Of a stretch of 64,000 nt of DNA, positions 54,801 to 57,740 are shown piece by piece. The DNA is from the human T2T-CHM13v2.0 reference genome, Homo sapiens, in the NCBI RefSeq assembly GCF_009914755.1, contig NC_060932.1; one strand, given 5' to 3'. Under the pieces are notes generated by a model. That model had not been told where the DNA came from and did no database searches. It worked only from the letters and a program-made list of their open reading frames with translations. Position 1 is the first letter of the stretch, and every line of letters begins with the position of its first letter. Position numbers and translations under genes: made by a program.

Positions 54801-55867
54801 AGGCAAGAGAAATAAATAAAGGGTATTCAAATAGGAAGAGAGGAAGTCATATTGTCTCTGTTTGCAGATGACATAATTGGATATTTAGAAAACCCCATTA
54901 TCTCAGCCCAAAATCTCCTTAAGCTGATAAGCAACTTCAGCAAATCTCAGGATCAAAATCAATGTGCAACAATCACAAGCATTCCTATATACCAATAACA
55001 GACAAACAGACAGCCAAATCATGAGTGAACTCCCATTCACACTTGCTACAAAGAGAATAAAAGGAATACAACTTATAAGGGATGTGAAGGACCTCTTCAA
55101 GGAGGACTACAAACCACCGCTCAAGGAAATAAGAGAGGACACAAGCACATGGAAAAACATTCCATGCTCATGGATAGAAAGAATTAATATTGTGAAAATG
55201 GCCATACTGCCCAAAGTAATTTATAGATTCAATGCTATCCCCATCAAGCTACCATTGACTTTCTTCACAGAATTAGAAAAAACTACTTTAAATTTCATAT
55301 GGAATCAAAAAGAGCCCATATAGCCAAGATAATCCTAAGCAAAAAGAACAAAGCTGAAGGCATCATGCCACCTAACTTCAAACTATACTACAAGGCTACA
55401 GTAACCAAAACAGCATGGTACTGGTACCAAAACAGATACATAGACCAATGGAATGGAACAGTGGCCTCAGAAATAATGCCACACATCTCCAAACATCTGA
55501 TCTTTGACAAACCTGACAAAAACAAGCAATGGGGAAAGGATTCCCTATTTCATAAATGGTGTTGGGAAAACTGGGTAGCCATAGGCGGAAAACTGGAACT
55601 GGACCCGTTCTTTACATCTTATACAAAAATTAACTCAAGATGGATTAAAGACTTAAACATAAGACCTAAAACCATAAAAACCTGAGAAGAAAACCTAGGC
55701 AGTACCATTCAGGACATAGGCATGAGCAAAGACTTCATGACTAAAACACCAAAAGCAATGGCAACAAAAGCCAAAATTGACAAATGGGATCTAATTAAAC
55801 TAAAGAGCATCTGCACAGCAAAAGAAACTGTCATCAAAATGATCAGGCAACCGACAGAATGGGAGGA

Positions 55868-56813
55868 TTTTTTTTTCCTTTTTTTAAATTATTATTCTTT
55901 AAGTTTTAGGGTATGTGTGCACAATGTGTGGGTTTGTTACATATGTATACATGTGCCATGTTGGTGTGCTGCACCCATCAACTAGTCATTTAGCATTAGG
56001 TATATCTCCCAATGCTATCCCTCCACCCTCCCCCCACCCCACAACAGTCCCTGGTGTGTGATGTTCCCCTTCCTGTGTCCATGTGTTCTCATTGTTCAAT
56101 TCCTACCTATGAGTGAGAACATGCGGTGTTTGGTTTTTTGGCCTTGCGATAGTTTGCTGAGAATAATGGTTTCCAGCTTCATCCATGTCCCTACAAAGGA
56201 CATGAACTCATTCTTTTTTATGGCTGCATAGTATTCCATGGTGCATATGTGCCACATTTTCTTAATCCAGTCTATCATTGTTGGACATTTGGATTGGTTC
56301 CAAGTCTTTGCTATTGTGAATAGTGCCACAATAAACATGCGTGTGCATGTGTCTTTATAGCAGCATGATTTATAATCTTTGGGTATATACCCAGTAATGG
56401 GATGGCTGGGTCAAATGGTATTTCTAGTTCTAGATCCCTGAGGAATCGCCACACCGACTTCCACAATGGTTGAACTAGTTTACAGTCCCACCAACAGTGT
56501 AAAAGTGTTCCTATTTCTCCACATCCTCTCCAGCACCTGTTGTTTCCTGACTTTTTAATGATCACCTTTCTAACTGGTATGAGATGGTATCTCATTTGTG
56601 CTTTTGATTTGCATTTCTCTGATGGCCAGTGATGATGAGCATTTTTTCATGTGTTTTTTGGCTGCATAAATGTCTTCTTTTGAGAAGTGTCTGTTCATAT
56701 CCTTTGCCCAATTTTTGATGAGGTTGTTTCTTTTTTTCTTGTAAATTTGTTTGAGTTCATTGTAGATTCTGGATATTAGCCCTTTGTCAGATGAGTAGGT
56801 TGCAAAAATTTTC
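55868..56813 (-). mobile_element. Younger 5'-truncated L1PA inserted antisense in host L1 ORF2
   Basis: Poly-T, reverse 3'UTR, ORF2 C-terminus on minus; TSD cagaatgggag at 55855-55865 and 56814-56824. Confidence 0.92.
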
Positions 56814-57740
56814 CAGAATGGGAGAAAATTTTTGCAATCTAAGCATCTGACAAAGGACTAATATCCAGAATCTCCAACAAACGTAAACAAATTTACAAGA
56901 AAAAAACAAACAACCCCATCAAATAATGGACAATGGATATGAACAGACCTTCTCAAAAGAAGACATTTATGTGGCAAATAAACATGAAAAAAGCTCGTCA
57001 TCACTGGTCATTAGAGAAATGCAAATCAAAACCACAATGAGATACCATCTCATGCCAGTTAGAATGGCAATCATTAAAAAGTCAGGAAACAACAGATTCT
57101 GGAGAGGATGTGGAGAAATAGAAATGCTTTTACACTGTTGGGAGTGTAAATTAGTTCAACCATTGTGGAAGAAAGTGTGGCAATTCCTCAAGGATCTAGA
57201 ACCAGAAATACCATTTGACCCAGCAATCCCATTACTGGGTTTATACCCAAAGAATTATAAATCATTCTGCTATAAAGAGACATGCACCTGTATGCTTATT
57301 GTGACACTGTTCACAATAGCAAAGACTTGGAACCAACCCAAATGCCCATCAATGAGAGACTGGATAAAGAAAATGTGGCACATATACACCACGGAATACT
57401 ATGCAACCATAAAAAAGGATGAGTTCATGTCCTTTGTAGGGACATGGATGAAGCTGGAAACCATCATTCTCAGCAAACTAACACAGGAACAGAAAACCAA
57501 ACACCGCATGTTCTCACTTATAAGTGGGAGTTGAACAATGAGAACACATGGACATAAGGAGGGGAACATCACATACAGGGGCCTGTCAGCGGGTGGGGGT
57601 TAATGGAGGGATAGCATTAGAATAAATACCTAATGTAGATTACAGGTTGATGGGTGAAAAACCACCGTGGCCCATGTATACCTATGTAACAAACCTGCAC
57701 ATTCTGCACATTTATCCCAGAACTTAAGGTATAATTTTTT

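What the first reader, a model, noticed from the sequence alone, without database searches (positions are those of the whole stretch)
55855..57735. Antisense L1 truncated exactly at the homologous position of its host L1, making a ~0.9-kb inverted repeat with a 10-nt spacer
Seen: junction ...GTCAGATGAGTAGGTTGCAAAAATTTTC-CAGAATGGGA-GAAAATTTTTGCAATCTAAGCATCTGAC...; the insert's 5' end is the same L1 coordinate at which it landed, the spacer is the TSD, and the two arms carry different subfamily diagnostics. Chance coincidence is low. Inference: pairing of the incoming RNA/cDNA with homologous host DNA beside the nick determined where reverse transcription ended or was resolved (homology-guided truncation). 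Closely spaced long inverted repeats are normally unstable and depleted.
Basis: partly seen in the sequence, partly recalled or inferred. Interest (0 to 1): 0.72.

Follow-up and report, generated by a model that had tools for sequence, protein, structure and literature searches.

The report
Inverted L1 pair from blocked copying
A younger L1 jumped backwards into an older L1 and its copy stops at the matching position of the host, a pattern that recurs elsewhere in the genome and suggests that pairing between the cut target DNA and the incoming L1 RNA can decide where L1 copying ends.

Summary
A 948-nt antisense young L1PA 3' end (55866-56813) sits inside an older sense L1. It is flanked by the duplicated host sequence CAGAATGGGAG, and its 5' end lies at the same L1 coordinate ("X") where the host resumes. 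This gives a ~0.9-kb inverted repeat (about 87% identical) with a 10-nt spacer. It is not a fold-back duplication: the insert is 94-95% identical to other young L1 copies, 87.7% to the host arm, and the arms share 1 private site in 872 columns. The coincidence recurs. I examined 12 antisense L1 insertions at this host site or at look-alike targets in the same genome. Seven reached X and four of those end within 2 nt of it (chr8, chr2, chr17, chr1). The chr1 target is not L1 and resembles it over only ~14 nt. X is not a general truncation hotspot. A second L1 site shows the same link between the target-site duplication (TSD) and the truncation point. Best reading: the second-strand TSD overhang anneals to the complementary stretch of the incoming L1 RNA, as in twin priming but without extension, and halts first-strand synthesis. 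The TSD is probably longer than the spacer. This is a new variant of a known kind.

The parts
51407..55865 (+). Host L1, 5' and middle part (older L1PA-type, sense). Another repeat interrupts it at about 51572-51887. It ends with the left TSD copy.
   Evidence: blastn against the window's own long L1 at 6513-11660: 51407-51571 and 51888-55874, 86.7% identity, collinear up to coordinate X.
55855..55865 (+). Left copy of the target-site duplication, CAGAATGGGAG (host L1 coordinates X-10..X).
   Evidence: Read directly. The same 11-mer is at 56814-56824.
55866..56813 (-). Insert A1: the 3' 948 nt of a younger L1PA-type element, antisense to the host. The tail (GA, T9, CC, T7, AAATTATTATT on the + strand) is at the left. 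The 5' end is at 56813, which is L1 coordinate X.
   Evidence: It is 94.0-94.8% identical to other young copies and to the chr2 and chr17 inserts, and 87.7% to the host arm.
56814..56824 (+). Right copy of the TSD (CAGAATGGGAG). Its first 10 nt form the spacer of the inverted repeat. If the nick was after the host T-run, the TSD extends to 56833.
   Evidence: The sister loci show nicks after the T-run.
56824..57739 (+). Host L1 3' part (H2), from coordinate X to its 3' end ...GGTATAATTTTT. This is the right arm of the inverted repeat.
   Evidence: It differs from the young-copy majority at 79 columns where A1 agrees with that majority.
57740..57994 (-). A2: a second, independent antisense young L1PA 3' fragment (about 255 nt) inserted in the host's tail. 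Its TSD TATAATTTTT is at 57730-57739 and 57996-58005, and the target TTTTT/AAAAAA is canonical.
   Evidence: It shares no private substitutions with A1 over 257 aligned positions.

Best explanation
An older, nearly full-length L1 was hit by a younger L1 in the opposite orientation through ordinary target-primed reverse transcription. Shown: poly-A tail, 5' truncation, and duplication of at least 11 nt of host sequence. Because the host is an inverted L1, the 3' overhang left on the second-cut strand (the future TSD) is the exact complement of the incoming L1 RNA at the homologous position. Inferred: that overhang annealed to the RNA, as in the first step of twin priming, but was not extended. 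The reverse transcriptase coming from the poly-A end peeled off the A/T-only part of the hybrid and stopped at its G/C-rich part (GGGAG:CTCCC). The cDNA therefore ends at coordinate X. Its 3' end was then joined to the tip of the overhang with 0-1 nt of microhomology, by template jump or end joining. The overhang was filled in, which left the TSD as the spacer of an inverted repeat. Cleavage of the RNA inside the RNA:DNA hybrid by a cellular RNase H, followed by run-off, would give nearly the same product and is treated as a sub-variant. The same process operates at non-L1 targets whose TSD happens to be the reverse complement of an L1 stretch.
For: (1) Anatomy.
(2) Not a duplication: (1 shared private site in 872 columns; A1 clusters with young copies).
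(3) Recurrence at the same coordinate. The exact inner-junction pattern finds 2 loci in 3.1 Gb, this one and C2:169.54M. With 3 mismatches allowed it also finds C17:41.91M.
(4) Census that is blind to insert length. 3'-junction patterns gave 68 matches each. I picked by eye the rows where the target reads GGGAGAAA(A) followed by a T-run, and mapped 12 of them. Four end at X-2..X+2: C8, C2:169.5M, C17:41.9M and C1:161.15M. Three run past X: C11:87.7M, C23:62.4M and C10:39.5M. Five end before reaching X.
(5) X is not a hotspot. There are 21 candidate copies starting at X-1/X against 9445 copies continuous through X. Of the 17 whose flanks were shown, 9 are true truncations, about the same as at a control coordinate 35 nt away (about 12 of 100 rows listed). 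That is roughly 0.3% per 5 nt for a copy that reaches X. Three of the 6 other loci stopping there has a binomial probability of about 1e-6 (my arithmetic).
(6) Short complementarity is enough. C1:161.15M is in non-L1 DNA with TSD TGGGAGAAATTTT. C12:100.77M and C2:226.0M behave similarly.
(7) Motif controls at X. CTCCC within 12 nt upstream of a copy starting at X..X+2 gives 3 true cases among 4 exact hits. The shuffled 5-mers CCCTC and CCTCC give 0 truncations among 1 and 28 hits.
(8) A second L1 site (AGGAACACTTTT/A, +288..+300). GTTCC upstream of copies starting at +292..+297 gives 16 exact hits, against 11 for CCTTG (4 of them are the same loci; about 3-4 are independent truncations) and 3 for TGCTC. 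Six were fetched, and in 4 the complement lies inside a verified TSD (L084, L085, L086, L088). In L088 the cDNA ends exactly at the edge of an 8-9 nt hybrid.
(9) In every case the cDNA lacks the part that would pair with DNA of its own strand, so the pairing partner of the overhang must be the RNA.
Against: No nested L1-in-L1 example was found at any host coordinate other than X. Exact inner-junction scans covering about +13..+163 and +188..+338 gave only complex rearrangements and one near miss, offset by about 40 nt. A 3-mismatch scan around +283..+338 gave none. At the +301 host site, 3 of 3 nested antisense inserts were too short to be informative. At about +30, 2 of 2 ran past. Three of the 7 that reached X also ran past, so any block is leaky. 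The stop position inside the hybrid varies (0 to about 12 nt in), which a simple roadblock does not predict. At this locus the left junction reads GGGAG-GA-T9, so either the nick was non-canonical or the left TSD copy has since lost AAAA. Rows for the census were chosen by eye from pattern hits, and some rows were not examined (for example C9:4819240, C7:140765725, C4:137568912, C3:105592284). Exact-word patterns favour young, little-mutated copies. No orthologous empty site could be inspected. A well-paired overhang that is not extended is itself unexplained.
Confidence: 0.55

Rival explanations
1. Pure coincidence: an ordinary antisense insertion whose random 5' truncation happens to fall at the homologous coordinate.
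For: The human genome holds many nested L1s, so a few exact coincidences are expected somewhere. No excess was found at other host coordinates.
Against: Four of the 7 insertions that reached this coordinate stop within 2 nt of it, while the background is about 0.3% per 5 nt. The motif controls give 3 versus 0 and 0. A second site gives 16 versus about 3.
Confidence: 0.07
2. Long-range homology. The nascent antisense cDNA pairs with the sense strand of the host L1 beside the nick, and the unpaired 3' flap is trimmed, as in single-strand annealing.
For: In the three nested loci about 900 nt of 70-88% complementary host DNA lies right next to the nick. cDNA recombination with genomic L1s in the same orientation is reported for cultured cells (recalled: Gilbert et al. 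2002/2005 and Symer et al. 2002; not read here).
Against: The same truncation occurs at non-L1 targets with only 13-18 nt of similarity, all of it within the TSD. The chr17 host is only about 70% identical. Flap trimming predicts an end at the nicked 5' end of the host strand (about X+10), not at X-2..X+2. The host sense strand would have to be unpaired.
Confidence: 0.1
3. RNase H variant. The TSD overhang anneals to the L1 RNA, a cellular RNase H cuts the RNA within that hybrid, and the reverse transcriptase runs off the cut template.
For: In most cases the cDNA end lies inside the predicted hybrid and not at its edge. RNase H2 is reported to promote L1 retrotransposition (PMC6068448; seen only as a title and the start of its abstract in the listing).
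Against: In L088 and C2:226.0M the cDNA ends at the hybrid's edge, which fits a block better. Sequence alone cannot separate the two.
Confidence: 0.2
4. DNA-level fold-back (palindromic) duplication of the host's 3' end, later diverged.
For: Exact register of the arms and a short spacer. Short self-templated inverted copies do occur at L1 5' ends next to the L1 palindrome AACTAGTT (L057, L058).
Against: The left arm is 94-95% identical to other young L1 copies and 87.7% to the right arm. The arms share 1 private site in 872 columns. At 79 columns the host differs from the young majority while the insert agrees with it. The left arm has its own poly-A tail and TSD.
Confidence: 0.01

Closest known systems
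Twin priming (5'-inverted L1 insertions; Ostertag and Kazazian 2001, recalled, paper not held; the model is restated in Kojima 2010, PMC2912911, passages read)
   Same: The second-strand 3' overhang at the target anneals to an internal site of the L1 RNA while first-strand synthesis is under way. The first cDNA ends near that site. Both require the second strand to be cut before reverse transcription is complete.
   Different: Here the annealed overhang is not extended, so there is no inverted segment derived from the same RNA. The result is a plain 5' truncation. The complementarity is 7-20 nt, longer than I recall for twin priming (a few nt; not measured here). The inverted repeat at this locus consists of insert plus host, with identical L1 coordinates. 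It is not made of adjacent coordinates of one element. A classic twin-priming L1 is present in the same window at 4279-6497.
Microhomology-mediated 5' end attachment of truncated L1 (Zingler et al. 2005, recalled; summarised in PMC2912911)
   Same: Sequence relations between target and L1 influence where the 5' junction forms. The final joining uses 0-1 nt of overlap, as in end joining.
   Different: Classical microhomology is direct identity between the end of the TSD and the L1 sequence just upstream of the truncation (overhang pairs with cDNA). Here the TSD is the reverse complement of the L1 sequence (overhang pairs with RNA), and direct microhomology is 0-1 nt.
Chimeric L1s formed when new L1 cDNA recombines with a genomic L1 (Gilbert et al. 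2002/2005, Symer et al. 2002; recalled, not read)
   Same: A pre-existing genomic L1 near the nick determines the structure of the 5' junction through homology.
   Different: As I recall them, those events join elements in the same orientation, delete the DNA in between and lack TSDs. This locus has opposite orientation, an intact TSD and no deletion.
Close inverted Alu/L1 pairs and their instability (Lobachev et al. 2000, Stenger et al. 2001; recalled)
   Same: A long inverted repeat with a spacer under 20 nt. The centre folds into a hairpin of -116.5 kcal/mol per 300 nt as single-stranded DNA.
   Different: The arms were already diverged at birth because they come from different subfamilies. 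The structure has plainly persisted. Its stability was not tested.

Membership tests
Canonical endonuclease-dependent TPRT insertion of L1 | 3' poly-A tail at one end of the insert | tested here: met
   Interrupted T-run at 55868-55885 on the + strand, directly after the L1 3' end sequence.
Canonical endonuclease-dependent TPRT insertion of L1 | Target-site duplication flanking the insert | tested here: met
   CAGAATGGGAG at 55855-55865 and 56814-56824. The motif occurs once in an uninterrupted L1.
Canonical endonuclease-dependent TPRT insertion of L1 | Nick at a TTTT/A-like site on the primed strand | tested here: inconclusive
   As it reads now the nick is GGGAG/AAAA. The sister loci show nicks after the adjacent T-run (AAATTTTTT/GC, ATATTTTC/AAAC, AAATTTT/AG). 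The left copy here may have lost AAAA.
Twin-priming (5'-inverted) L1 insertion | Inverted and direct segments derive from one RNA and cover adjacent L1 coordinates | tested here: not met
   The two arms cover the same coordinates (X to the 3' end) and belong to different subfamilies: 87.7% to each other, while the insert is 94-95% identical to other young copies.
Twin-priming (5'-inverted) L1 insertion | Complementarity between the second-strand overhang and an internal site of the L1 RNA, at the point where the direct segment begins | tested here: met
   The reverse complement of the TSD equals L1 X-10..X, and the insert begins at X. The same holds at C2, C17 and C1.
Fold-back / palindromic duplication | Arms are copies of each other (shared private substitutions, same subfamily) | tested here: not met
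   1 shared private site in 872 columns. There are 79 host-only and 17 insert-only differences from the young majority.
L1 chimera by cDNA recombination with a genomic L1 | Same orientation, a seamless homologous junction, loss of intervening DNA and of the TSD (features as recalled) | tested here: not met
   Opposite orientation, TSD present, host collinear across the insert.

The most novel reading that the evidence does not exclude
Reverse complementarity between the target-site overhang and the L1 RNA is a general, so far overlooked determinant of where L1 (and perhaps other ORF2p-copied RNAs) become 5'-truncated. Call it abortive twin priming. It acts whenever a TSD-sized stretch of the target matches the template in inverse orientation, and it is near-obligatory for antisense L1-in-L1 hits at endonuclease-like sites of L1 itself. 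It would also be direct in-vivo evidence that the second strand is already cut and unwound while first-strand synthesis is hundreds of nucleotides from completion.
Probability: 0.35. Interest if true: 0.7.

Novelty: new variant of a known kind. Interest (0 to 1): 0.58.

Why it matters
Most human L1 copies are 5'-truncated, and the cause of truncation is still debated (processivity, end joining, microhomology). These loci are natural experiments in which the target carries a known complement of the template, and copying stops there in about half of the informative cases. This supports a concrete, testable cause for a subset of truncations. It bears on the open question of when the second strand is cut; a 2026 preprint calls how and when this happens poorly characterised (10.1101/2024.12.14.628481, passage read). 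It also explains how long, closely spaced inverted L1 repeats, which are potential fragile structures, can arise in a single step. At least one earlier survey of 5' junctions excluded insertions inside repeats (Kojima 2010, PMC2912911, criterion 4, read), so this class may have gone unseen.

Tried and rejected
Fold-back duplication: rejected.

X as a general truncation hotspot: rejected. The raw counts of 21 versus 119 are not like for like. The flank view shows that most of the 119 are older L1 variants that lack GGG at that position.

A1 and A2 as copies of each other or products of one event: no support (0 shared private sites). Their tails both contain ...AAAAAGGAAAAAA, which stays unexplained. 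The AATTTAAAA tail motif shared with the chr2 insert is common among the hits and is not special.

Inner-junction scans at other coordinates gave the following.
- L041 and L042 are complex rearrangements or templated inverted duplications.
- L043 is a nested insert offset by about 40 nt.
- L049, L067 and L068 are micro-inversions or micro-duplications inside one L1.
- L070, L071 and L073 are not L1.
- L075 is an internal deletion.
- L057 and L058 are short self-templated 5' inversions at the L1 palindrome AACTAGTT, and L059 is a small internal change.
- C20:6263798 looks like ordinary twin priming, judged from the printed match only.

A palindrome-based model was considered, in which the cDNA's AAAATTTT pairs with the same palindrome in the overhang. 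I dropped it because it predicts a junction without the spacer.

A panhandle between the cDNA 3' end and the primer-side TSD was also considered. I dropped it because the cDNAs lack the complementary part.

Literature: four full-text searches and passages of three papers gave no description of homologous-coordinate truncation. The twin-priming paper itself is not held.

No other primate genome was available, so the orthologue check could not be done.
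Full report
WHAT IS THERE

The stretch 51407-58005 of the window is an older, nearly full-length sense L1. It aligns collinearly to the window's own long L1 (6513-11660), which I used as a coordinate ruler. Two antisense fragments of younger L1PA-type elements interrupt it.

The first, A1, is 55866-56813. On the + strand it starts with GA, T9, CC, T7, AAATTATTATT. It then continues as the reverse complement of an L1 3' end for 948 nt and ends ...GGTTGCAAAAATTTTC at 56813.

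The host sequence CAGAATGGGAG is present on both sides of A1, at 55855-55865 and 56814-56824. The host then continues AAAATTTTTGCAATC.

I call X the G of GAAAATTTTT. A1's first base is X, and the host resumes with X after a 10-nt spacer. The repeat finder reports the innermost arms as 56689-56813 and 56824-56948, 10 nt apart, followed by a collinear series out to 55886 / 57740.

As single-stranded DNA the central 300 nt fold into one hairpin of -116.5 kcal/mol. Shuffles give -28.8 (z = -25.8).

NOT A FOLD-BACK

I aligned A1, the host arm H2, three other L1 3' ends of the window, and the inserts and hosts of two sister loci.
- A1 is 94.0-94.8% identical to the young copies and 87.7% identical to H2.
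- At 79 columns H2 departs from the young majority while A1 agrees with it. The reverse is true at 17 columns.
- A1 and H2 share a state absent from all other sequences at only 1 of 872 columns.

So the arms have separate histories. I could not attach subfamily names because no repeat library was available. "Younger" and "older" rest on these identities and on the different 3' ends.

IS THE COINCIDENCE MORE THAN CHANCE?

The window's genome (3.1 Gb) can be searched with patterns.

An exact pattern made of a 13-mer lying 20 nt inside the arm, its reverse complement and a 40-70 nt gap finds two places in the genome: this locus and C2:169.54M. With three mismatches allowed it also finds C17:41.91M.

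Both sister loci are nested antisense insertions with a poly-T and a TSD. Their hosts are different and much older L1s, 81% and 70% identical to H2. Their inserts start at X-1/X-2 and at X+2.

To avoid selecting on insert length, I searched for the other junction, host ...GGGAG(AAAA), then up to 40-60 nt, then the antisense L1 3' end. Each of the two looser searches gave 68 matches, most of them unrelated targets. By eye I took the rows where the target reads GGGAGAAA(A) plus a T-run, and mapped 12 insertions against the ruler.
- Four end at X-2..X+2: C8, C2:169.5M, C17:41.9M and C1:161.15M.
- Three run past X: C11:87.7M, C23:62.4M and C10:39.5M.
- Five stop earlier, at +831, +616, +666, +546 and +701.

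Some rows were not examined, and I list them under evidence against.

X is not a general truncation hotspot. There are 21 candidate copies beginning at X-1/X against 9445 copies continuous through X. With flanks shown, 8 of 17 are internal deletions or duplications and 9 are true truncations. A control coordinate 35 nt downstream has about 12 true truncations among the 100 rows listed. The raw 119 is inflated by older L1 variants.

A copy that reaches X therefore has roughly a 0.3% chance of ending in a given 5-nt window. Three of the six other loci doing so has a probability of about 1e-6 by my arithmetic.

WHAT KIND OF PAIRING?

The chr1 locus decides between models. Its target is not L1: blastn finds nothing beyond the junction. 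Its TSD is TGGGAGAAATTTT(T), which is L1 X-5..X+9 with one A missing, and the insert starts at X+1.

A search biased towards the motif found two more such cases in non-L1 DNA.
- C12:100.77M has flank GGGAGAATTTTTT and starts at X+2.
- C2:226.0M has the TSD GAAAATGGGATTTTCTTTTC. It has 7 nt of complement and starts at X-1.

As a control, CTCCC within 12 nt upstream of a copy starting at X..X+2 gives 3 true truncations among 4 exact hits. CCCTC and CCTCC give none among 1 and 28 hits; all of those are continuous L1.

TSD-sized similarity in inverse orientation is therefore enough. The TSD overhang on the second-cut strand has antisense polarity, so it can pair with the RNA. It cannot pair with the cDNA, which has the same polarity. 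In every case the cDNA ends before or within the complementary stretch, so it cannot have paired through that stretch itself.

The direct microhomology at the 5' junctions is 0-1 nt.

A SECOND SITE

L1 has one other sense-strand site that looks like an endonuclease target, AGGAACACTTTT/ACAC (+288..+300).

Copies starting at +292..+297 are preceded within 14 nt by GTTCC, the complement of GGAAC, in 16 exact hits. The shuffled word CCTTG gives 11 hits; 4 are the same loci, others start further 5' or are continuous, and about 3-4 are independent. TGCTC gives 3.

Six loci were fetched.
- In four the complement lies inside a verified TSD: L084 (TSD AAAAATGTTCCAATTTGT, 15 of 18 like L1 in inverse), L085, L086 and L088.
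- In L088 the cDNA ends exactly at the edge of an 8-9 nt hybrid.
- Two (L083, L087) have no clear TSD.

None of these is nested in L1.

LIMITS

For nested L1-in-L1 I found the effect only at X.
- Exact scans of about +13..+163 and +188..+338 gave only complex rearrangements and one near miss.
- A looser scan of +283..+338 gave short self-templated inversions at the L1 palindrome AACTAGTT, which are a different class.
- Three nested antisense inserts at the +301 site are too short to reach it.
- Two at about +30 run past.

The likely reason X stands out is that the L1 sense strand is A-rich and offers few T-runs for antisense hits. That is an inference.

MECHANISM

The best reading is twin priming arrested after its first step. 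The second-strand overhang anneals to the RNA. The reverse transcriptase displaces the A/T part of the hybrid and stops at the G/C part (GGGAG at X, GGAAC at the second site). The two 3' ends are then joined with little or no overlap, and the overhang is filled in.

Cleavage of the RNA in the hybrid by RNase H, followed by run-off, is an equally workable variant for most loci. Why a well-paired overhang is not extended is not explained.

At this locus the left junction (GGGAG-GA-T9) suggests either a non-canonical nick or later loss of AAAA from a 20-nt TSD. The sister loci favour the second option.

KNOWN OR NEW

The ingredients are known. Annealing of the top strand to the template RNA is step K of the models summarised by Kojima 2010 (PMC2912911).

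In four full-text searches and the passages read I found no description of truncation at the coordinate complementary to the TSD, nor of homologous-coordinate truncation of antisense L1-in-L1. Kojima's survey excluded insertions inside repeats. The original twin-priming paper could not be read, and what I say of it is recalled.

I rate this a new variant of a known kind. It is of moderate interest, with support from a handful of loci at two coordinates and not yet from a full census.

Noticed in passing
window 57740-57994 (TSD 57730-57739 and 57996-58005): A second antisense young L1PA 3' fragment (about 255 nt) sits in the host's own tail at a perfect TTTTT/AAAAAA site, 920 bp from A1. It is in the same orientation and the same subfamily (both have AATGCTAAATGAC). 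Both tails contain ...AAAAAGGAAAAAA. There are no shared private substitutions in the body, so the two are either siblings from one source element or a coincidence.
   Followed up: partly
window 4279-6497: An L1 with a classic 5' inversion (twin priming). The antisense piece 4279-4645 and the sense piece 4643-6497 meet at the same L1 coordinate.
   Followed up: no
window 6498-6512, 11649-11663 and about 11775-11790: The word (A)GAGTACTAC(AATACC) follows the poly-A of three successive L1 3' ends. It looks like repeated L1 insertion into one target next to an earlier poly-A tail, with the TSD carried along.
   Followed up: no
L057 (G000:C8:89184300-89186800) and L058 (G000:C2:53350600-53353100): L1 copies truncated at about +318/+324 carry a 14-17 nt inverted copy of their own adjacent sequence, centred on the L1 palindrome AACTAGTT. 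These look like short self-templated snap-back events at the 5' end.
   Followed up: partly
L076 (G000:C4:62347150-62348400): An antisense insertion at the same host site X that itself has a 5' inversion (antisense 923..666 followed by sense 572..660). The host resumes at X-2.
   Followed up: no
L082 (G000:C2:139548750-139550020): An antisense L1 inserted at about +30 of an older L1 ends at X-7 and is followed by sense L1 from +680. This suggests an insertion-associated loss of about 650 bp of host, or a more complex event.
   Followed up: no
L049 (G000:C3:185144014-185147095), L067 (G000:C4:29131700-29134300), L068 (G000:C3:156688150-156690750): Small local inverted or tandem duplications (about 20-40 nt) inside single L1 copies, right at the GGGAGAAAATTTTT / AAAATTTTCTCCC region. 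This site may be prone to template-switch mutations.
   Followed up: no
window 57730-57745 and 36195-36215; L018: Older L1 copies end ...GTATAATTTTT(TT)AAAAA, not in a plain poly-A. This built-in TTTTT/AAAAA is a ready-made endonuclease site for antisense insertions into the tail, as happened with A2.
   Followed up: no
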